Source of the DNA: Trichinella spiralis
Lineage: Eukaryota
Direction: 5' to 3'
Assembly (NCBI RefSeq): GCF_000181795.1
Contig: NW_003526941.1
Location: forward strand, 3,869,348-3,933,347
DNA length: 64,000 nt
Shown here: one piece after another, positions 38,906-64,000 of the stretch
How the letters are laid out: every line of letters starts with the position of its first letter
Numbering within the stretch: position 1 is the first letter of the stretch
Notes under the pieces: model-generated
What the model was told of the DNA's origin: nothing
Database searches by the model: none
Seen by the model: only the letters and a program-made list of their open reading frames with translations
Position numbers and translations under genes: made by a program

Positions 38906-41633
38906 AGCTAAATTATACAAGAAAAATTTAATTTTCGAAAAAGGATGATTTCGAGAATTACTGTAAATATTGTAAATCAGGTATAAATTTACGTGATTAA
39001 AATTTCAATGTATTGTATTAAAATTACAAGTGAATAATTTCTATAAATTTTCTTTTGATCATTACAGTTGAACATCGCAAAGTTTGCAATAAATTTTTGA
39101 TGATTACTTATCAAAAAATGCCGAGTGCAAAAGAAAAACATTCACATGCAATATTAAAATGCAAATAAAAAGTTCGATTCGGTTGTCAATTTAAAACAAA
39201 ATAAAATTCGAATTAATTGGTCGTTCGCTTGTGCAAACTTTGAATGAGAAATTGTAATTTTTCAATTTCACCACGGTAACATAAACCGAAACTTGCTAAT
39301 TGAATATAATTTCTCCAATTTTATAAAAAGTTCATCAGCTTGAGAAAAAAAAATATATTATTTTCCTTATTTCAATGCGACATGATAAATTTTGTTTGAT
39401 TTCTTGTTCAAAAAGTACCCAAAATGGAAAATAAAATCTCCTCCCCTGAAGGGTAGAACTGCGATCAATGTCGTCATGTTGATGAACCCGAATGCTTTAA
39501 TGCACGGTAAAACGCAGGCCATTGAACGATATACAATTTCGGCCGAAATTTAATCGTCGGCTTACAGACAATCGACCATGGCTGGCAAGGCCAATAAATT
39601 CACATTATAATCGCTTGAACAGAATTTAATTTTTCAAAAAAGAAATAAGAATAGCAAAATTATTTCACACAATTTCTGTTCACATTTTCTCAACTAGCAT
39701 GCAAGATGATTTTGAATTAGAATCAAAAATGATCAATGTTGATAAAAATATTTTAAAAAATGAATAAATAAGAAATCAAAATATTCAAATAATCAAATAA
39801 ATTTGATTTGAAGACAAATATGTAGAAAAGAAAGAAAAGACAAAAAATAGTAGTAAATTACGTCATTGAAGAGGGAAATTATTTTTCTCATAGAATGTTG
39901 AACTTTTTGGGAAAATCCCGGACAGAAAATTTGGCTAAACTTTTCTTGACCCAGGCACGACCGTATTGCTTACGTGCGTTGCAAGCAGAATGGGTGGCTA
40001 CGTGCAAAAACTTCGCCAACGAATAGAAAGCATTTAGGTCAAACTGACAAGCAAGCAAGAAATTTAAGTGGTCTGATAGCGCCACAGACGATCACTTTCA
40101 GTTCACCGCAGCAACAAATCACCAAACGTTTCCAACAATTTTCATCGGCAACAACAAAAATCAGGTAAAAAATTTCATTCTCATATTTCATTATTATTAA
40201 ATATTTTATTTAAAACAACAAATCTATTGGTCATACAATTGAAAAAGCTGATCTTAATTCACACATATATACCCCCCCTCCCCCAATCTGCATGTTCTAA
40301 ACAACATTATATTATTATTTCAATAAAATCCAAATGTTGCCGAGCCAAACAATTGATCATAGATGATAGATAGTGAATTACAATATTCAGCGTGCATCGC
40401 TCAACCGTGCGAAATTAGCTTACTGAAATTATGAAAATGAATAATAATTTTAAAGTTCAAAAGTCGACTTCAACAATGAATGAATGCAAATGAGATACAA
40501 GAACATAAACGATACAACAATTATTATAAAGCACAACAGATAATTCATCTCTGAGCTTTTTTTGAAAAAAAAGAAGGGGATTGTATAAATTCAGACTGTG
40601 ACATGAAGAAGAAACTAGACTCTCAGCGTATGAAAAGAGCTGTTTACTAGGCCGAATGATGTCCTTCACACATGGTCGACTGTGTTCCGGCTTTACAAGG
40701 TCAGTTCCCATCACTCGCTGAGCAATATTTTCATTTTGCACAAAGCTTATTTCTCATTTCGATTTAAAAAGACGATAAATTTGATTAAGGAAAAATATAA
40801 TAAAGGTGGCAATAAGCAATGCCAAAAAAATAGAAAGAAGCCACATAAATTCAGACATAAACACCCAAAGCAGACGTGAAACAACAGCTGATGCAGCTGG
40901 CTAGACAGACGCTCAGGAAGCAAGATGTTGAGAAACGTTTCCCAAATAGCAACTTTTATACTATAGTCTAGTCGACGAAACAACTGCTTCGTCTGAAAAT
41001 AAAAAATTGCTTCTTCACCAATCCACCGTTAGAAACAGCTTTTTCCTCCTCCCCCACCCTCTGAACCCTCGAAAAATTCAAAATCAACAATTAATTTCCA
41101 ATTAAAAGTTTTCAATAAGAAAATAATTATTAAAAAAACCATATTATCATCTAGATCAAGAATCAGTGTTGGATTTGTAAAAAAAATACTTCTCTCAAAT
41201 TCAACAACGTGTAAAAAAAGAATGATCGCTTAATTTTAAAGCTCTGCTTCAACAACCAATTCAAAATTTCCAAGAATCAAAAAAGATATCGAATCGATGA
41301 AAATGAATTAAAAATTTTAATCCAAAACTGCCTGCCATTGGTTGGAATAGAAATGAAAAGACGAACAATTTCAACTTTGTCAAAAATAGGTTGCATTTAA
41401 GTTAATTTGTGCTTTTCAATTTCGAAATTATTCATTTTATTTGGAGAACATTTTCCATTCAGTAAAGTTTCAATTGAAAAAAATCACACACAACCAACCT
41501 GATTGATATCAAAAACCCACTAGCACATTCTTTGAGCAATCAGCTTTATCGCGTAGAAAAAAGAATTATGAAAGAAAAAAACGCAAATTTTTTTCTTTTA
41601 CAGAAAATATTTAAAAAAAAGAAGAATACAATA

Positions 41634-44298
41634 ATGTTGAACATGATCTGGCCATTGACCACGGCAACGTTGTTGCTTGGTGCAATAACGCCGTTCAGTC
41701 GAGGTGAAGTGTTCACGTCGATGGCCAACATCGACATGCTATTGCAAATGGGTGAAGATGTGTCACGTATTATTGACAACTATGTCGAAGAAGATGAACG
41801 ACGTCTGGAACAATTGAAAAAGTAGAAATTTACATATACACCAGACCCAACAAACCAAATGAATAACCGTTTCAGATTATCCGCCGAATACAAGTCCCAC
41901 AAAGTGCAAGTGCACGGCCAAGAAGGTACTGACAACGTCATTGTGAACCCGGTCGAAAGTTTTGCCATTGTCAAACAGCTCGCGGACAGCTGGCGCTACG
42001 TGGAACAGTTGATGAAAACTAATTCGGCCGAAAGTACCAACCGACCACTTTCAAACAGATTATTGTGATTATTAATTGTAATTGTGAAATTTTCCATTTA
42101 TCAGAATTGATACAAAATTTCACCCATCACACGCACAACTCGGTCGTCAGACCTCCAAGTGAAGAGGATGTGATCGGCACGGCGGTCGGATTGATGCGCA
42201 TTCAGGATGTATACAAATTGGACACTCACGACATGGCCGAAGGGAAAATCAGAGGTGTTCTCGATGGACGCAAACTAACAGGTATTGAAAATTTTCATAC
42301 GTATACGTATATCATGTTTTATTTTTTTTTCCAAATTTCAGCCTACGATTGCTTGGAAATTGCCCGAGTAGCTTATAATAAACAAGATTTCTATCACACT
42401 CTGCTTTGGGCAACCGAAGCTTGGGATCGTGTGCAAAAAGAGGACGAACCGACCATTGACGAGGCGACCGTATTGGAATATATCGCCTTCGCCATGTTCA
42501 AGCAAGGCAACATCGAATGGGCCATCCATTACACAACGCTGATCAAACAAGTCGATCCGAATCACCCCAGGGCGTCGGGAAATTTGAAATATTACCAAGA
42601 TTTATTAGATCCAGAAGGCAAGCCCAGAAAAATTGACCCAAAAAAGCTGCCACCGCCGACAAACCGTCGTCCTGACGATCTCAGCATCCCTGAACGAGAC
42701 GTCTACGAGGGGCTGTGTCGCAGTGAATATCCAATAGTCAGTATACTGACTTCAACGTTCAATTCTTTTCCACCGTACCTGACGATAGATATCTTTAGTC
42801 TGACAAAGATCGTGCCAAATTGTACTGCTATTACAAACGCAACCGACCCTATTTGAAATTAGCACCAATCAAGGTCGAAGTGATGCATTGGAAACCAAAA
42901 ATCGTCTACTTCAGAGGTGTCATTTCTGATGAAGAAATTGCTGTCATCAAGCAACTCGCTTCACCATTGGTAGAATGTTTTTCATTATTTAAGTTTATCA
43001 AAAATCAAACAACACTATTCAAAAATTTAAACTCTGTTCATTTTCAGCTGAAACGAGCGACCGTACACAACGCCGATACTGGACAATTGGAAACGGCAAG
43101 CTACAGAATCAGCAAGAGGTAAATTGAAATTCAACTCCAAAAGAAGAAACAATTTTCACATCTCAAACGTGAAAAGTTGAACAAGTAATATACGCAAATG
43201 TAATGGTTTATTCTTGCAGCGCTTGGCTTAAAGATACAGAACACGAAGTTGTTAAACGCATATCTGATAGAATTGACATGATGACAGATTTGACAATGGA
43301 AACTGCTGAACTTTTGCAGGTAGTTCGACAAATTCTTCTCATAATAATACATTCAAGCTATATTTACAAAAACGCCTATTCAGATTGCTAATTACGGTAT
43401 CGGCGGACACTACGATCCTCATTTCGACATGTCTACAGTAAGTCAATTTAAACTTTTATCCAATAATTCAAATTTACAACCAATTCAACGTGAACACTGT
43501 TTAAGAAAAATAAATAAATGAATAAATGAAAAAAAATTATTTTTCCATCTTCAATGCTCTTTAAAATTTCTAAAGTGAAAATCAACTTATAAGAAAAAGA
43601 GAACAAACTCAAAACGTTTATCAATATATTAAAAACTGGGTAAAATTATGAGCGACAATATGACAAACATTTTTCAGCGAGGTGAAAGCGATCCGTACGA
43701 AGAAGGGACCGGAAATCGCATCGCCACCGTTCTATTTTACGTAAGCCATTACTGATTTTTCTTTTGCTTTTTTAGACAAATGATCCGTACAGTTTCGAAA
43801 GTTTAAATGCAGGAAACCGAATAGCAACCGTACTGTTTTATGTAGGTTATTTATATAAAAGTTATATTTTGTTCATGTTGTTGTACAAACTCTTATTCTT
43901 AAAAGCAAAGATTGTTAAAATGGAAAACAATATCGAAATTGCACGACGATCATAAATAACAACTTGCACATATTATATGAAATGGCATTATTATTTTTAT
44001 AGATTTCACAACCGGAAGCTGGGGGCGGAACTGTATTCACTAGTCACAAAATTACTGTCGAACCAAGCAAAGTAATTTAACTTATTTTATCCATTTACTG
44101 GAGTTTTATTTCCAATGTTCACAGTACGACGCCGCGTTTTGGTTTAACGTATTGCAAGGAGGAGAGCCAGATATGAGTACGCGACATGCAGCATGTCCTG
44201 TGCTGGCGGGTACAAAATGGGTGGCTAACAAATGGATTCACGAAAGAGGGCAAGAATTTCGTCGTCCTTGTTCTACGAAAGAAACTGACTATGAATAA
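41634..44298 (+). CDS. P4HA: Collagen prolyl 4-hydroxylase alpha subunit, copy 1 (one duplicated exon pair)
   Basis: Signal peptide then EVFTSMA, NPVESF, LMRIQDVYKL, DCLEIARVAY, YEGLCR, LKLAPIKVE, RATV...YRISKSAWL, IANYGIGGHYDPHFD, GNRIATVLFY, RHAACPVLAGTKWVANKWIHERGQEF. Stop at 44298. Confidence 0.96.
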
Positions 44299-44381
44299 GC
44301 GACTCCTACGTACGCTGAAACTGCTCTAAATTTTTACCATTGTTCTTTTTTTTCAACTTTATCAAACATTTCACTTTATCC

Positions 44382-44382
<1 letters not shown>

Positions 44383-44421
<39 letters not shown>
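44383..44421. repeat. (ATT)13 microsatellite
   Basis: Perfect ATT run in the 3' region of P4H copy 1. Confidence 0.95.
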
Positions 44422-45329
44422 GTTAACTGTTTCAACTGTATTAAAGATGTCACGTGCGTTTCATTTCTCTTTTCATTATAGCGAATTCGAACAAACAATG
44501 ACGAATAGGAAATTGAAACATGCAAAACCACATACATAAAACGAAATAACAGATCTCTTACCTTATGAGTAATCTTCTTAATTACTATTTCTTCGTCCTA
44601 TAAGCACCTTCTTACTCTGCATACAATTATAAACAAAACTACTGACCAAGTCGGCTACTTGATTCAAATTTTATCACTTAATTTACAGTATAATAAATAA
44701 TACTTGAGTGTCACAATGTTTTTACTGAACATGTTATAAGCATCATTGATATCAGTAAATTTAGTAAGCATGCTAAATTATTTACTTTAAATAAATATTT
44801 ATTTGAAAGTATGGTATTTACAACTGTAGTGTGAATTATTTTAGCAATAAGAAGTTAGTTAACAATGAGGAGCGTTATTATCATATTTGCACTGACGCAG
44901 TGATTCTTATTATTCTTCGACTACGAAGCGGTTTCCCTAAGTTATTTCTCAGACAACAGCACAACAACTTGATTCCTATTTATAGTGCTTGCTCTAAAAA
45001 CAAAACTGCACTATCCATTTGGTCCTACTGTAGGTCATTGGACTTGAATTTTGTTGCACGCGGAAAAATATGATCTTTATTTAAAACTTGTTTTAATGAC
45101 TGCTGCTCCTATAATTTGTGATAAATTCTTTGATTCTTTAGTCTTTTCCCCCGGGTGCGTTACTTCTGCTACGCGGCTGTTGCTTGTTTGACGAGTATAT
45201 CTATCGTAGGCAATGCTTTCTTGAAAACGATCACTTCCTTTTTGTTGTTAAATTGTTTTCACCTTTCATTTAGATTGAACAACTTTTGACGGATTTTTAC
45301 TTGAAATAAAGCTGCTCAAAACACCTACA

Positions 45330-48300
45330 ATGGCATTATCACATTTCATTATCTTTATCACACTGATGGATTGGTGGTGTGCCATGCGATCATCTGCCGA
45401 GGTATTTACAGCCATGGCTGATGTGGAAAACCTCATTCATACTGAAGATAATGTGGTGGACGTGATTGAACAGTACATTGAAAGTGATTTGAGACGACTG
45501 CAGCGTTTGAAAAGGTACATTTTTTTTGAATGAATTTTAGTTTTTCTTTTTTTCAACCGGGAAATCGTCTTTCGTCTACTTCCTCCAACGTGAAGAAGAC
45601 CTATAAATGTAGTAGCATTATAAGTTACAGATTAAATATTCAGCTGAGCAAGTTTATCATATGAAGAAGAATGCAATTTATCAAAAGTCGCACCCTAATA
45701 TTCTATCCAACTAAGATGACGTTTTTACCTTGAGCAGTAGTTCGGCGACCTTTTCTCAAAAGTGACACACACACACGTGAGAGTCATTTTTAAACCAATT
45801 TATATTTTATTGTCAGTTGTTTGTTCGAACTCTTTCGAAAACGTAACCTGCATGAAAATTTGATTTAATTATTAGAAAAAAATAACATAACAGTTTGTTT
45901 TTATTGATAATTAAATTCACACATAGTTTGGCACAAGAATATCGTGAAAGCAAAGAAAAAGCTTTGAAAGAAGGTGCAGATCGACTTTACAATCCAGTGA
46001 ATGCATTTTTATTTATTAAAAAACTGACCGAAGAGTGGAACGACGTTGAACTGCTGATGAAATCTGACCACGCAGACAGTAAATGAAATTTGTTTTCATG
46101 TTCAATTTTACAATATCAAAAAATACTTACATTTGACGACCATTTTCAATAGTTTACTTACAAAACATAACTGCAATGCGGGATTCATCGTTGGCTAAAT
46201 TCCCTACTGAAGAAGATTTGACCGGAGCGGCCGAAGCTTTGCTACGCCTTCAAGATGTCTACAAATTGGACACGCATGAATTATCTTCTGGAAGAATAAA
46301 AGGTGCCAAGCAGGGTCTTGAATTGGATGGTATGAATTAATTTGTTTAATAATATTTCCTGGTTTGTTTATTTTGTTTTTCGCTTAACAATAGCTAACGG
46401 CTGTTTTGAACTTGGTCGAGTTGCTTATAATCAAAAAGATTATTACCATGTGATCCTTTGGATGCAGGAAGCGTTGAATCGCGTTGAACATGAAAATCCA
46501 CCGTCTGTTGATCAGGCCGAAATTCTCGAATATCTTGCTTACGGAATGTATCAACAAGGCAACGTGAAAAGAGCGTTGCAGTTGACGAAACGCTTGCAAC
46601 GCATCAAGCCCGATCATCCCAGAGCTGAAGGAAACGTCAAATGGTATCTGGACCTATTGGCTAAAGAAGGTGTGTCCAGAGTTACCGATCACGATCTGCC
46701 ACCAATCGTCAATGCTCGTCCGAACGACCAAGCTCTGCCAGAGAGGAAGGACTTTGAAGCATTGTGTCGTGGTGAATATTTGCTGGTAAAACAAAAAAAA
46801 TCTCAAATTATGCAAATATACCCCAACAATAATTTCTTCCGTAAATTACTCTTTTTAAACAGACAGAAAAACAACGCTCTCGTTTGTATTGCTATTACAA
46901 GCGTGATACACCATTTTTGAGTTTGGCACCGATCAAGGTGGAAGTGATGCACTGGAAACCAAAAATTGTCATTTTCCGTCAGGTGATCAGTGCAAACGAG
47001 ATTGCCGTATTGAAAACTCTAGCATATCCTCGGGTAAGATTTCTCTGGATGTGTTCATATTATTGTTCTTGAGAGAAAAATGGGCAGTTTCCATCGCGCT
47101 TTTTTGTTCTTTTTTTTCGCGTACTTTTTCAGCTTTCCCGAGCGACGGTGCAAAATTCCGAAACTGGCGAACTTGAAACTGCTAAATACAGAATCAGCAA
47201 AAGGTGTCGAACTGTTTGTTTTTCCTTTATTGGGTGGGGTTCACTTTAGCTTTGTTAGAGCATGCTTTTGTCTCTCTCTCTCTCTCTTTTTTTTTTACCA
47301 ATTATCACTTCCATTAGTTTTGCTTGTTCTTTTGTTGCTTTGTAGTTGCGAAGAGCCACCGTGCACAACAAGGAGACGGGACAACTGGAACACGCCTCGT
47401 ATCGTATCAGTAAAAGGTGTTTGTTGTTTGCATTAACTTTATATATTGCTTGTTATTGTTAGATATGCTAGAAAACATAAAAGCTTGGGTAGTAGTAGTA
47501 GTAGCTAGTTGATTGTATGAAAAATAATCTACGTACTTACCTGCTTTTGCAGTTTCTCATTTTGGTAATTTATAATTTTTCAGCGCATGGTTGAAAGAAC
47601 ATGAACATCCAGTAGTTGATAGAATCGTAAAAAGGATCCATGATATGACCAACTTGAATATGGAAACTGCTGAAGATCTTCAGGTATATTTTTTAGCTTC
47701 AACAATTTGCTCGACTTCAGTTACAGATTAATATTCTTTCTTCGTTTTTTCATCTTATTCATTCACTGGTTAATTTTCATTTTTCACATTTGGCGTCATT
47801 GGTTTTCTTTTTTCTTTTGTCAGTGATAATCATCAATGTGATGATGATATTAAATGTTCTATTTACAGATTGCCAACTACGGTCTCGGAGGTCATTACGA
47901 CCCTCACTTCGATCATGCTAGGGTAAGCATCGTGCTAGAGGGTCATTGTCAATGATAAATTGCATTTTTTATGAACTCTTAACATTGAAATGAGAATAGT
48001 AATAATAATAGTAATCAAAGAAATAACGTGTACCGATTACTTAGGTTTCACTTCCAGGATAATACTATTATTACAGTATATTGGAACGCAGGATAAATGC
48101 AATATATAATGTGTTTGAACCGAACCGCTACAAACGTAATAAAAGATATACATTGACAACGTTCTCTCTAGCACGAAATTCTTTCTTTACTTATTTTTTG
48201 CTTTTGTTTAGATAGCCAATTACGGGATAGGTGGTCACTATGAACCTCATTTTGATATGTCTACGGTAAGCGATGCGCCGGTTATCTCATCAGCAGAGAG

Positions 48301-49241
48301 GCTCTAATTAAAAACATAAAATTGTAGGGAGATCAGTAATTAGAGATGTAATTTATAATTTATAAATACAAAATAACCAAACAAAACAAATTAAACAGCC
48401 TCTGCTGATGAGAGAAAATATCCGGTTAAATTTTCAGTAGACCTTTGCTCATGGACTATTTCAGCGTGACGAAGTGGATCCATATGAGCACGGGCATGGA
48501 AATCGCATCGCCACCACTCTTTTTTATGTGAGTATTTTATTCAACATATTTTGCAAGATGTTTTTTCTTTATAGAAGGAAGAGGTGAATGCTTTCAAAAG
48601 CCTGAACACTGGTAATCGGATCGCAACGGTTCTGTTTTATGTATGTATTTAATTTTATATGCACTGTCGGTTGAATTTTGTTTCCTTTTGCTTCTACCTT
48701 TTCTTTTCTACGTATACCGCATGCCATAATCGAAAATTTGCTTCTATTTTTGCATGAAAAATGTGCAAAGGAAGAAGTTTCAATACAAAAAAAAACTGAA
48801 TTATTTCAAATTCTAATTTGCATGCTAATATATGAATAATATGTGAATGAATGTGCTGCAACTTTATCCCTTTTCTTCGACTAGTTATGATAGTTGAAAA
48901 GTCAACCAACGTGGACAAATATCCTTCCTTTTAGATATCTCAACCTGAAGCTGGTGGTGCAACAGTGTTTATTACACACAAGTTGGCCATTTTTCCAGTC
49001 GAGGTAAAGTAAAAAGCAGATCACTATGATGAAAGTGGAAGCCATAGGGGACGTGCTACTTTTTCAGGGTGACGCTGCATTTTGGTTCAATTTGAAACCT
49101 AATGGCGAAGGTGACATGTCGACCCGCCACGCAGCTTGTCCAGTTTTAGCTGGTGTGAAATGGGTTGCGAATAAATGGATTCACGAACGTGGTCAAGAGT
49201 TTTACCGGCCTTGCGGTCTACGCGAAGATGATTATGAATAA
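45330..49241 (+). CDS. P4HA: Collagen prolyl 4-hydroxylase alpha subunit, copy 2 (three duplicated exon pairs)
   Basis: Same motifs and largely the same intron positions as copy 1 (EVFTAMA, NPVNAF, LLRLQDVYKL, CFELGRVAY, FEALCR, RHAACPVLAGVKWVANKWIHERGQEF). Alternative exons at 47133-47203/47346-47416, 47869-47922/48212-48265 and 48465-48527/48575-48640. Confidence 0.96.
47930..48176 (+). promoter_or_regulatory. Intronic inverted repeat (candidate pre-mRNA stem) between alternative exons B1 and B2 of P4H copy 2
   Basis: 47930-47942 pairs with 48164-48176 (13 bp, one G-U) and 47946-47954 pairs with 48151-48159 (9 bp). Confidence 0.65.
48278..48425 (+). promoter_or_regulatory. Intronic inverted repeat (candidate pre-mRNA stem) between alternative exons B2 and C1 of P4H copy 2
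   Basis: TCTCATCAGCAGAGAGGCT (48285-48303) pairs with AGCCTCTGCTGATGAGA (48397-48413), 17 bp with a 2-nt bulge, plus an outer CCGG/CCGG pair. Confidence 0.65.
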
Positions 49242-63048: not shown

Positions 63049-64000
63049 TTACTGCCGACAAGCGGACCGTGATCTTCTTCGTGAATGCAAGCCGAAAAAG
63101 TCGTCTCCTACCGACGGCAAACAAGGAGGTGAGCCGCGGTGATGAGAACTGTTGTTGATGTTGACGAACGGCCCTTGTGTATCCACGTTCAGAAACAAAT
63201 CCATACTTTCACCGTCGAACAGCAAACTGCCGGCGAAATCGGTCAGCTCGTTCTTGGTCGAGTCAAGTCTGACACCGTCAACATCCAAAAAGTCACTAGG
63301 AAACAAACTGGACGAGGCGACATCTTCCAGAAGCATCTGATGGAAGCTATCCAAGCAAGACGATGTCTGCTGTTCGTTTAGCTGCTGTTGCTGTTGTTGT
63401 TGTTGTTGCTGCTGCTGCTGTTGCTGTTGGTGTTGGTGCTGTTGCTCCTCTTCAGCAATGTTCAGCTCATAGCTTTGCCTCTGATTGTTGCTATTATTAG
63501 CGACGTTGCCGTTGATCACCGCCGTCGGCCCACCACCGCCGCTACTGTTAGTGCTACTGCTAACTGTCGCCTCGTCCAACGTGGTCGGATGCATACGACG
63601 TTGGTGCTCCTTGAGCTTATCTCGTCCTAGCGGGTGGAAAAAAATTACAATGCAAACTCATGGNAGAACGGGTTTCACTTCCCANAATGAAATCCGTCTC
63701 GTGACGGGACCCAAGTGGTGACTTTTCCAAAAAATGCTTTGGCCGCAATTTTGAACAGGGAAAATTTCTTCTCGCCAGCGTGGGGTTCTCAAATGGCCAA
63801 TCAAGTGGGAACGTTTGGCAGCGAAAAAGTTACAATGCGGCTCTTTGCAGCGGAACACATTTCCCGAATGGATTCTCTTGTGCGTTTGCAAATGGGACCT
63901 GTACTTGCTTATGAAACCGCAATGTTCACAGTGGTATGGTCTGAGGGTATCGTGTGAGCGCATGTGGATCTGCAATCTTCGTTTGCTTGAAAAACTATTA
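63049..64000 (-). CDS. C2H2 zinc-finger protein, 3' part only, with polyQ and acidic C-terminal region
   Basis: HMRSHDTLRPYHCEHCGFISKYRSHLQTHKRIH and CKEPHCNFFAAKRSHLIGHLR fingers. Last exon has a polyQ run and stops at 63049. Sequence around 63660-63790 contains Ns and probable errors. Confidence 0.75.

What the first reader, a model, noticed from the sequence alone, without database searches (positions are those of the whole stretch)
47133..48640. Three consecutive mutually exclusive exon pairs in one prolyl 4-hydroxylase catalytic domain (up to 8 isoforms)
Seen directly, all six exons have intact AG/GT borders and open frames. Pair A is two 71-nt exons (47133-47203 LSRATVQNSETGELETAKYRISK; 47346-47416 LRRATVHNKETGQLEHASYRISK); including both would frameshift. 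Pair B is two 54-nt exons (47869-47922 IANYGLGGHYDPHFDHAR; 48212-48265 IANYGIGGHYEPHFDMST), each with the Fe(II)-binding HxD motif. Pair C is 63 and 66 nt (48465-48527 RDEVDPYEHGHGNRIATTLFY; 48575-48640 KEEVNAFKSLNTGNRIATVLFY). Established, from memory: vertebrate P4HA1 has a mutually exclusive pair at position A and P4HA2 one at position C, both affecting substrate-binding loops. I do not recall a gene with both pairs plus a duplicated active-site exon. Inference: a combinatorial cassette that diversifies collagen substrate specificity, easily mis-annotated by gene predictors.
Basis: partly seen in the sequence, partly recalled or inferred. Interest (0 to 1): 0.9.

Follow-up and report, generated by a model that had tools for sequence, protein, structure and literature searches.

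The report
Coupled loop-swapping exons in collagen hydroxylase
A Trichinella collagen prolyl 4-hydroxylase gene carries three old, conserved pairs of duplicated exons for the three loops around its active site, but its RNA shows two of the pairs chosen together and only one complete protein form, so it likely makes at most four enzyme versions rather than eight.

Summary
All six exons are real at the stated coordinates, in a Trichinella collagen prolyl 4-hydroxylase alpha gene. Pair A encodes the hairpin loop, pair B the catalytic loop with HxD, pair C the betaII-betaIII loop. All six show protein-level purifying selection. The B and C pairs are position-orthologous across nematodes, and Trichuris trichiura and Nippostrongylus models hold all three pairs.

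Free 2x2x2 combinatorics is not supported. In the 4 runs laid on the cassette, B1->C2 and B2->C1 appear, B1->C1 and B2->C2 do not, A1->A2 co-inclusion (frameshift) appears in 2, and A1->e7 and C1->e10 are not listed. Only A2-B1-C2 has every junction. Depth is low and contigs drop junctions.

Likely mechanism: pair A is policed by nonsense-mediated decay, pair C by a 47-nt spacer, and pair B and the B2-C1 coupling by two intronic RNA stems (one perfect 14 bp, 0 of 200 shuffles).

The human A and C pairs, and a C. remanei A pair, are in print; bird models also show A, B and C variants. This scan earlier noted single duplicated pairs in arthropod genomes. Verdict: new variant of a known kind.

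The parts
45330..49241 (+). Collagen prolyl 4-hydroxylase alpha gene g2, ATG to stop. Constitutive exons 45330-45514, 45927-46078, 46153-46329, 46394-46785, 46863-47033, 47584-47683, 48935-49003, 49068-49241
   Evidence: Open 535-536 aa frames; junctions up to e10 in the RNA joint tables, e10-e11 seen only as a loose end; Pfam P4Ha_N, TPR_P4H and 2OG-FeII_Oxy_3 on the near-identical P0012
47133..47203 (+). Exon A1, 71 nt, hairpin substrate-binding loop
   Evidence: e5->A1 seen in X18, X1, X4; A1->A2 seen in X4, X9; A1->e7 not listed; pN/pS 0.23 against A2
47346..47416 (+). Exon A2, 71 nt, hairpin loop, the main form
   Evidence: e5->A2 in 4 of 4 runs; A2->e7 in all 5 runs laid
47869..47922 (+). 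Exon B1, 54 nt, catalytic loop Tyr plus HxD iron ligands
   Evidence: e7->B1 in all 5 runs; B1->C2 in X18, X1, X4
47930..47954 (+). 5' arm of predicted B1-B2 intron stem (11 bp at 47930-47940, 9 bp at 47946-47954)
   Evidence: 11-bp perfect inverted repeat, 4 of 200 shuffles; intron fold z -2.73, 2 of 200 shuffles
48153..48176 (+). 3' arm of predicted B1-B2 intron stem, ending 35 nt before the B2 acceptor
48212..48265 (+). Exon B2, 54 nt, catalytic loop plus HxD, nematode type ending in D-M-S-x
   Evidence: e7->B2 3 reads in X18; B2->C1 in all 5 runs; 11 of 11 differences to the paralogue's B exon at third positions
48285..48298 (+). 5' arm of a perfect 14-bp stem in the B2-C1 intron
   Evidence: 0 of 200 intron shuffles, 6 of 300 cassette shuffles, one of 2 such repeats within 300 nt in the 64-kb window; z -3.75
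48400..48413 (+). 3' arm of the 14-bp stem, ending 51 nt before the C1 acceptor
48465..48527 (+). Exon C1, 63 nt, short betaII-betaIII loop plus strand betaIII
   Evidence: B2->C1 seen; C1->e10 not listed; pN/pS 0.34 against the paralogue's C1
48528..48574 (+). 47-nt C1-C2 spacer, shorter than all 20 other introns of the two genes that do not join alternates (53-412 nt); retained in RNA
   Evidence: lengths; unspliced contigs in X1, X4, X9, X8 and sense depth about 7 in X18
48575..48640 (+). Exon C2, 66 nt, long betaII-betaIII loop, the main form
   Evidence: B1->C2 in 3 of 4 runs; C2->e10 in all 5 runs
48751..48824 (+). Two TGCATG elements (48751, 48819) downstream of C2, candidate RBFOX/ASD-1-type sites (motif meaning recalled)
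   Evidence: 2 of the 23 plus-strand copies in the window lie in this 294-nt intron; post hoc, untested
41634..44298 (+). Tandem paralogue g1: single A (43048-43118), single B2-type B (43384-43437), C pair 43678-43740 and 43776-43841 with a 35-nt spacer
   Evidence: 539 and 540 aa open frames; groups with the Trichuris trichiura g1 half

Best explanation
This is an old cassette of three duplicated exon pairs for the three active-site loops of a collagen prolyl 4-hydroxylase, in which B and C are likely chosen as linked units (B1 with C2, B2 with C1), so the gene would make at most four enzyme forms, with A2-B1-C2 the only one complete in the RNA examined. Shown: exon anatomy, selection on all six exons, cross-nematode conservation, and the listed junctions. 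Inferred step 1: pair A is not exclusive at the spliceosome; A1+A2 joining shifts the frame and is likely removed by nonsense-mediated decay. Inferred step 2: C1 and C2 likely cannot be joined because the 47-nt spacer (35 nt in the paralogue) is too short, so it is retained and gives a stop in C2. Inferred step 3: a predicted stem collapses the B1-B2 intron to about 42 free nt, which would block B1->B2. Inferred step 4: a perfect 14-bp stem collapses the B2-C1 intron to about 70 free nt, an ordinary intron here, which would fuse B2 and C1 early into one 117-nt module that is taken or skipped as a unit. Inferred step 5: the A1 and B2-C1 forms are likely made in stages or tissues not sampled, where they would change substrate preference or kinetics; elsewhere their stalled or decayed RNAs would dampen output.
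For: Junctions (whole table of 8 rows): B1->C2 375.5 in X1, 63.8 in X4, 3 reads in X18; B2->C1 390.7, 40.5, 128.5 (X9) and 3 reads; B1->C1, B2->C2, B1->B2 and C1->C2 not listed in any of the 4 runs. With independent choice, one of the two missing B-C junctions would be at least about 383 in X1 and 51 in X4, as deep as those kept (arithmetic). A1->A2 58.6 in X4 and 274.6 in X9; stop at 47592. pN/pS 0.03-0.34 in the comparisons that involve the six exons, against 0.33-0.38 for constitutive exons. Same-position scores beat swapped in 8 of 8 nematodes for B and 9 of 9 for C. Acrobeloides has exactly B1C2 and B2C1 models, and B2-C1-e10 models also exist for Ancylostoma duodenale, Parascaris and Steinernema hermaphroditum. 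All 7 single-pick Trichinella models are B1C2, and B2 is never joined straight to C2 in 32 models. Stems. Loop mapping: alignment to 7ZSC counted against the residue ranges in PMC9676403. C. elegans phy-2 has an intron-included NMD substrate (PMC5765348 supplement legend) and a SUP-12-dependent embryonic splicing event at its exon 10 (PMC3025544); neither text says which exon of this cassette is meant.
Against: A1->e7 and C1->e10 were not listed in any of the 4 runs, and 0 of 32 Trichinella g2 models have C1->e10, so the A1 and B2-C1 proteins are not shown for this gene. Only 70 records of the one raw-read run lie on the cassette, and a junction needs 3 reads to be listed. Contigs demonstrably drop junctions (e7->B2 is only in reads; X9 lacks B1->C2), so absences are weak. 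B1C1 and B2C2 models exist elsewhere (S. hermaphroditum P0285, Nippostrongylus P0032; fixed B1-type plus C1-type genes in Meloidogyne and Heterodera). The paralogue's B-C1 intron has no such stem (z 0.22). Stem conservation is untested: none of the X9 differences listed in these two introns hits the perfect arms, which is not significant by hand estimate (about 0.2). Part of the intronic depth in unstranded contigs may be antisense RNA.
Confidence: 0.6

Rival explanations
1. A1, B2 and C1 serve mainly to make unproductive RNA (frameshifted or intron-retaining) that tunes the level of one enzyme, A2-B1-C2; their proteins are negligible in Trichinella g2.
For: Only A2-B1-C2 has every junction. 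In X4 A1->A2 (58.6) about equals e5->A1 (59.3). C1 runs unspliced into C2 at depth 996 in X1 against 375.5 for B1->C2. C. elegans phy-2 has an NMD-targeted intron-included form. The paralogue g1 already supplies a B2-type plus C1 enzyme.
Against: A poison exon need not keep its codons, yet all three show pN/pS 0.03-0.34 and keep frame and motif in T. pseudospiralis and Trichuris. A1->e7 occurs in 5 of 32 Trichinella models. Productive B2-C1-e10 models exist in four other nematodes.
Confidence: 0.22
2. The three pairs are chosen independently and give up to 8 enzymes.
For: All 8 frames are open. B1C1 and B2C2 models exist in other nematodes. Contigs can drop junctions.
Against: B1->C1 and B2->C2 are not listed in 4 of 4 runs while both reciprocal junctions are present at similar depth in X1, X4 and X18; A1->e7 and C1->e10 are not listed.
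Confidence: 0.08
3. B1+B2 and C1+C2 are routinely co-included in frame, giving a loop-extended enzyme of up to 575 aa as in the NCBI models.
For: The frame stays open (575 aa); 25 of 32 Trichinella models co-include C1 and C2.
Against: No spliced B1->B2 or C1->C2 joint is listed in 4 runs although the C1-C2 spacer is covered about 7-fold by sense reads. It would duplicate the HxD strand and strand betaIII of the core. The models also fuse two genes and use an extra donor to keep A1+A2 in frame, which marks them as predictor artefacts.
Confidence: 0.07
4. One member of each pair is a decaying leftover of a recent local duplication.
For: No productive exit junction was seen for A1 or C1.
Against: Synonymous sites between partners are near saturation, amino acids are conserved, and B and C are position-orthologous from Trichuris to strongylids.
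Confidence: 0.03

Closest known systems
Human P4HA1 exons 9/10 (9a/9b), mutually exclusive homologous exons
   Same: Same position (hairpin loop) and same 71-nt length (PMC8373072 supplement rows; PMC9676403). Dated to Bilateria with a C. remanei equivalent. The two human forms differ in collagen deposition in cells (PMC11868403 passages).
   Different: Here A1 is seen joined to A2 or followed by a retained intron, not to the next exon. First-to-first orthology with fish or Nippostrongylus is not resolved by score (140-141 v 135-137; 127 v 131).
Human P4HA2 exons 12a/12b
   Same: Same loop. Same layout: short exon first (60 v 63 nt), a very short spacer (49 v 47 nt), 66-nt exon second (coordinates).
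   Different: Published as vertebrate in age, but a pair at this position is in nematodes, a sea urchin and a nemertean. Here it sits in the same gene as pairs A and B and appears coupled to B.
C. elegans phy-2 (F35G2.4) alternative splicing
   Same: The gene falls in the clade whose members keep the B/C cassette. An embryonic SUP-12-dependent event and an NMD-targeted intron-included form are reported.
   Different: In the passages and supplements seen, neither paper describes duplicated exons or enzyme isoforms. Trichinella g2 is a co-orthologue of both rhabditid alpha-subunit clades, not a strict phy-2 (quick tree).
Bird, alligator, tortoise and sturgeon P4HA1 gene models
   Same: Duplicated B exon in automatic annotation. 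Birds also show both A forms and two C starts, and two Calonectris models pair first-B with one C start and second-B with the other.
   Different: Vertebrate B copies are closer to each other than to either nematode copy (181-187 v 158-162), so likely a separate duplication or homogenised. No DNA was available to show that the two C starts are separate exons.
RNA-structure and steric mutual exclusion (Dscam1 docking/selector, ATE1 competing pairings, donor-to-branch-point under 50 nt, interleaved clusters such as CUX1)
   Same: Bridging by intronic pairing (PMC11802352) and steric, frameshift-NMD and interleaved-cluster cases (PMC5740500) are established.
   Different: Here two non-competing end-to-end stems in consecutive introns are predicted, one blocking and one bridging; no docking/selector competition was found. 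The dynamin-1 case is recalled only; the paper was not held.

Membership tests
Collagen prolyl 4-hydroxylase alpha subunit | N-terminal dimerisation domain, peptide-substrate-binding TPR domain and C-terminal 2OG-Fe(II) domain | tested here: met
   PF08336, PF23558 and PF13640 above cut-off on P0012, which is 100% identical over 535 columns to the window's A2-B1-C2 product; best PDB match 7ZSC, E 3e-83
Collagen prolyl 4-hydroxylase alpha subunit | HxD...H iron ligands, catalytic-loop Tyr and 2OG-binding Lys | tested here: met
   HxD and Tyr in both B exons, distal His and Lys in the last exon, aligned to 7ZSC; the roles of the distal His and Lys are recalled
Collagen prolyl 4-hydroxylase alpha subunit | Assembly with PDI and hydroxylation of X-Pro-Gly | not testable with these tools
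   needs recombinant assay
Homologous mutually exclusive exon cluster | Tandem homologous exons of like length, same frame and intact splice sites | tested here: met
   for all three pairs
Homologous mutually exclusive exon cluster | Each member is joined to upstream and downstream flanking exons in RNA | tested here: inconclusive
   Met for A2, B1, B2 and C2; no exit junction listed for A1 (to e7) or C1 (to e10) in the 4 runs, at low depth
Homologous mutually exclusive exon cluster | Members are not joined to each other (pair A) | tested here: not met
   A1->A2 in X4 and X9; it shifts the frame, so exclusion can hold only at protein level
Homologous mutually exclusive exon cluster | Members are not joined to each other (pairs B and C) | tested here: met
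   No B1->B2 or C1->C2 spliced joint in 4 of 4 runs; the C1-C2 spacer is retained instead; absence in contigs is weak
Independent multi-cluster (combinatorial) cassette | All cross-cluster junctions occur | tested here: not met
   2 of 4 B-to-C junctions seen, the nested ones
RNA-structure-directed splicing | Intronic pairing beyond chance, close to the splice sites | tested here: met
RNA-structure-directed splicing | Covariation across species and rescue by compensatory mutation | not testable with these tools
   No other Trichinella or Trichuris genomic DNA could be fetched (the genome search covers prokaryotes)

The most novel reading that the evidence does not exclude
Nematodes have kept, since the split of Trichinellida from other nematodes, a hidden second version of the collagen prolyl hydroxylase active site: a B2-C1 composite exon, fused by an intronic RNA bridge and switched as one unit in a stage- or tissue-specific way. 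Birds have a parallel nested switch, and the betaII-betaIII loop pair with its roughly 48-nt steric spacer is bilaterian in age rather than vertebrate.
Probability: 0.3. Interest if true: 0.72.

Novelty: new variant of a known kind. Interest (0 to 1): 0.52.

Why it matters
Collagen prolyl 4-hydroxylase is needed to build the nematode cuticle and is discussed as a drug target (PMC3548485 title and abstract start). Which collagen sites each isoenzyme prefers is set partly by the three flexible loops that these exons encode. A gene that swaps all three loops, with natural B1C2 and B2C1 forms conserved across nematodes, gives a direct way to test loop control of substrate choice, including in C. 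elegans phy-2. It also shows three exclusion mechanisms side by side in 1.5 kb, suggests that the published age of the P4HA2-type pair is too young, and flags wrong public models (co-included exons, two genes fused).

Tried and rejected
No whole genome is held for this window, so other Trichinella introns could not be compared.

No holder of the stretch is on record as RNA. 5 of the 24 listed runs were laid; one is raw RNA reads, and four are contigs guessed to be RNA that show GT..AG joints. One search hid 14 joints, so absences rest alone.

A degenerate motif scan of metagenome contigs for B2-type exons found 0 matches. The second scan gave 45 loci, none with a duplicated B or C exon by motif search; 3 loci of an unnamed animal hold an A pair (the C search was redone on 19 of the 45).

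No competing docking/selector pairing stood out among the 25 longest of 61 inverted repeats, other than the B2-C1 stem; the B1-B2 stem came. The paralogue's introns show no significant stems.

The tree is the quick method, as the careful search did not finish. Models with several copies were mostly left out, though four with a doubled B or C and the two halves of P0166 were kept.

and the isoform part of 49 had off-by-one constitutive exon borders; they were corrected.

Ten literature searches gave no paper describing the B pair, B-C coupling or this Trichinella locus. PMC3548485, PMC3675011 and PMC10225086 had no relevant passages. The library lacks most subscription journals; bioRxiv supplements and one supplement of PMC3025544 were not searched; Figure S2 of PMC5765348, which would show the phy-2 intron concerned, was seen only as a legend.

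No structure prediction was run, because the loops are disordered or weak in the solved structure and natural g2 minor isoforms were not among the stored proteins. A sequence look-up of earlier findings gave nothing.
Full report
Observation. The six exons are at the stated coordinates with AG/GT borders and the stated translations. They lie in a Trichinella gene: exon 4 is 96-100% identical to Trichinella prolyl 4-hydroxylase alpha proteins (16 of 42 hits), and the species was not fixed. The coding region runs 45330-49241. All 8 single-pick isoforms are open at 535-536 aa; A1+A2 stops at 47592, and retention of the C1-C2 spacer stops at 48585. A tandem paralogue g1 (41634-44298) has one A, one B2-type B and its own C pair 35 nt apart. 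In a quick tree of 53 rows, g1 and g2 each group with a Trichuris counterpart, and both lie outside the clade that holds the two alpha-subunit lineages of other nematodes.

What the exons encode. The A2-B1-C2 protein (P0012) has the three family domains and aligns to 7ZSC. Counting residues in that alignment against the ranges in PMC9676403 (passages) puts A on the hairpin loop (Arg363-Val376), B on the betaI-betaII catalytic loop with Tyr427, the HxD ligands and the first residue of the next loop, and C on the betaII-betaIII loop (Arg435-Gly448) plus the following strand. B1 and B2 differ most in their last three residues, which abut C, so B and C together build one loop (inference).

Selection and age. 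Pairwise pN/pS is 0.23 for A1/A2, 0.19 for B1/B2, 0.03 for B2 against the paralogue's B, 0.34 for C1 and 0.25 for C2 against the paralogue, compared with 0.33-0.38 for two constitutive exons (uncorrected, and pairwise values do not say in which lineage selection acted). In run X9, 1 of 38 differences falls in the six exons and is synonymous (p=0.001). Co-inclusion models expose the cassette in other species. Same-position scores beat swapped ones in 8 of 8 nematodes for B (189-196 v 160-165) and 9 of 9 for C (149-185 v 83-114); sea urchin gives 139 v 90 and Lineus is ambiguous at 115 v 111. For A the order is clear only with Trichuris trichiura (178 v 149). T. trichiura (P0166) and Nippostrongylus (P0033) hold all three pairs. 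Sturgeon, alligator, tortoise and bird P4HA1 models hold a doubled B exon that is not position-orthologous to the nematode pair, and birds also show both A forms and two C starts within one species. These species were found by searches biased towards doubled models (120 listed of 2341, and 120 of 984), so the counts are not frequencies.

RNA. Five of 24 listed runs were laid. X18 is raw stranded RNA (about 18% read, 70 records on the cassette); X1, X8, X4 and X9 are contigs. Seen: e5->A1 (X18, X1, X4), e5->A2 (4 of 4), A1->A2 (X4, X9), A2->e7, e7->B1, B2->C1 and C2->e10 (5 of 5), e7->B2 (3 reads, X18 only) and B1->C2 (X18, X1, X4). Not listed in the complete table: A1->e7, B1->B2, B1->C1, B2->C2, C1->C2 and C1->e10. 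So only A2-B1-C2 is complete. B1->C2 and B2->C1 have similar depth (375.5 and 390.7 in X1; 63.8 and 40.5 in X4; 3 and 3 reads), so independent choice would make at least one missing junction as deep. Against this: contigs drop junctions (e7->B2 is absent from all three contig sets, B1->C2 from X9), and reads under 3 are not listed. Introns inside the cassette are heavily covered (X1 834-1075, against 0 for A2-e7 and 112 for C2-e10). In stranded reads the C1-C2 spacer has sense depth about 7, but the B1-B2 intron has no sense depth over most of its length, and antisense reads plus an antisense-type joint (47467-47541) show that part of the contig signal may be antisense RNA. Of 32 Trichinella g2 models, 7 are single-pick (all B1C2; 5 with A2, 2 with A1), 25 co-include C1 and C2, and none has C1->e10. 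In other nematodes single-pick B2-C1-e10 models occur in 4 species, B1C1 in 1 and B2C2 in 1 within this cassette gene; B1-type plus C1-type is fixed in Meloidogyne and Heterodera genes. These are gene models, not reads.

Mechanism. Pair A: 71 nt, co-inclusion seen, frameshift, so decay is the likely filter. C. elegans phy-2 has an intron-included NMD substrate (PMC5765348 passages and supplement legend), though the intron is not named in what I saw. Pair C: the spacer is 47 nt (35 in g1) against 53-412 nt for the 20 other introns that do not join alternates. Donor-to-branch-point distances under 50 nt are the human criterion for steric interference (PMC5740500 passages); the threshold in Trichinella is unknown. 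Human P4HA2 has a 60-nt exon, a 49-nt spacer and a 66-nt exon in the same order (PMC8373072 supplement rows). Pair B: the 289-nt spacer is closed by 11-bp and 9-bp stems that leave about 42 free nt (z -2.73, 2 of 200 shuffles). The B2-C1 intron has a perfect 14-bp stem that leaves about 70 free nt (0 of 200 intron shuffles, 6 of 300 cassette shuffles, z -3.75). Of the 24 introns tested these two have the lowest z; the third lowest is C2-e10 at -2.01. I infer that B2 and C1 are fused early into one module, that B1 cannot join it and that it cannot join C2, which leaves B1-C2 or B2-C1. Why B1->C1 is avoided before fusion is not explained. Two TGCATG elements after C2 and the SUP-12 dependence of a phy-2 event in embryos (PMC3025544 tables) hint at tissue regulation; this is untested.

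Comparison and novelty. The human A and C pairs and their loops are in print. Pair A is dated to Bilateria with a C. remanei equivalent and pair C to Vertebrata (PMC8373072 passages and supplement). A functional difference between the human A forms is reported (PMC11868403 passages). Multi-cluster and interleaved exon clusters and RNA bridging are known. Ten searches found no paper on the B pair, on B-C coupling or on this locus. Earlier notes of this scan report a doubled B exon in an arthropod and an A pair in a springtail; I did not check them. The locus is therefore a new variant of a known kind: all three loop exons doubled in one gene, conserved across nematodes, with nested rather than free choice.

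Verdict. Observation confirmed; interpretation partly supported. Best explanation 0.6, mainly-regulatory rival 0.22, free eight-way 0.08, in-frame co-inclusion 0.07, decay 0.03. Interest 0.52.

Noticed in passing
window 38908-44561 (minus strand): RNA joins 44562 to 38907 on the minus strand (12 reads in X18, contigs in X8 and X4), a 5654-nt GT..AG intron that contains the whole g1 gene in antisense. Downstream minus-strand frames near 38732-38517 carry a motif like SAM-binding motif I of arginine methyltransferases (recalled). The g2 5' UTR contig starts at 44710, so the two promoters are close and divergent.
   Followed up: partly
window 41634-49241: NCBI Trichinella and Trichuris trichiura models fuse g1 and g2 into 1085-1206 aa proteins, and keep A1+A2 in frame by a donor 10 nt downstream that the RNA does not show.
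   Followed up: partly
window 47467-47541: A CT..AC joint (antisense-type splice) in the A2-e7 intron in X4, X9 and one X18 read, plus low antisense read depth over 47100-48335: a possible spliced antisense RNA over the cassette.
   Followed up: no
window 45205-45274: A 68-nt 5' UTR intron of g2, and 3 reads with a 10-nt loose end before 45272 that resembles the 3' end of a Trichinella spliced leader (recalled, untested).
   Followed up: no
window 43678-43841: The paralogue's C pair has a 35-nt spacer, and its C2 starts differently from the usual nematode C2; its RNA use was not resolved because hid 14 joints.
   Followed up: partly
L028:836-1207, L036:5262-5545, L041:225-627: An unnamed animal in metagenome contigs has an A pair but single B, and its C exon is split by an extra intron; TGCATG elements follow the second A exon in L036 and L041.
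   Followed up: partly
P0078 (JGI contig, 1592 nt): A protein from another nematode-like transcript reads B2, C1, a short retained spacer and then C2 out of frame, the same unproductive form as seen here.
   Followed up: no
P0060, P0070, P0073, P0245, P0250, P0260, P0267: Bird P4HA1 models read through a 21-codon spacer between two B exons and show two different starts of the C exon within one species, possibly a second triple cassette.
   Followed up: partly
window 63309-63578: The only other perfect inverted repeat of 14 bp or more within 300 nt in the window.
   Followed up: no
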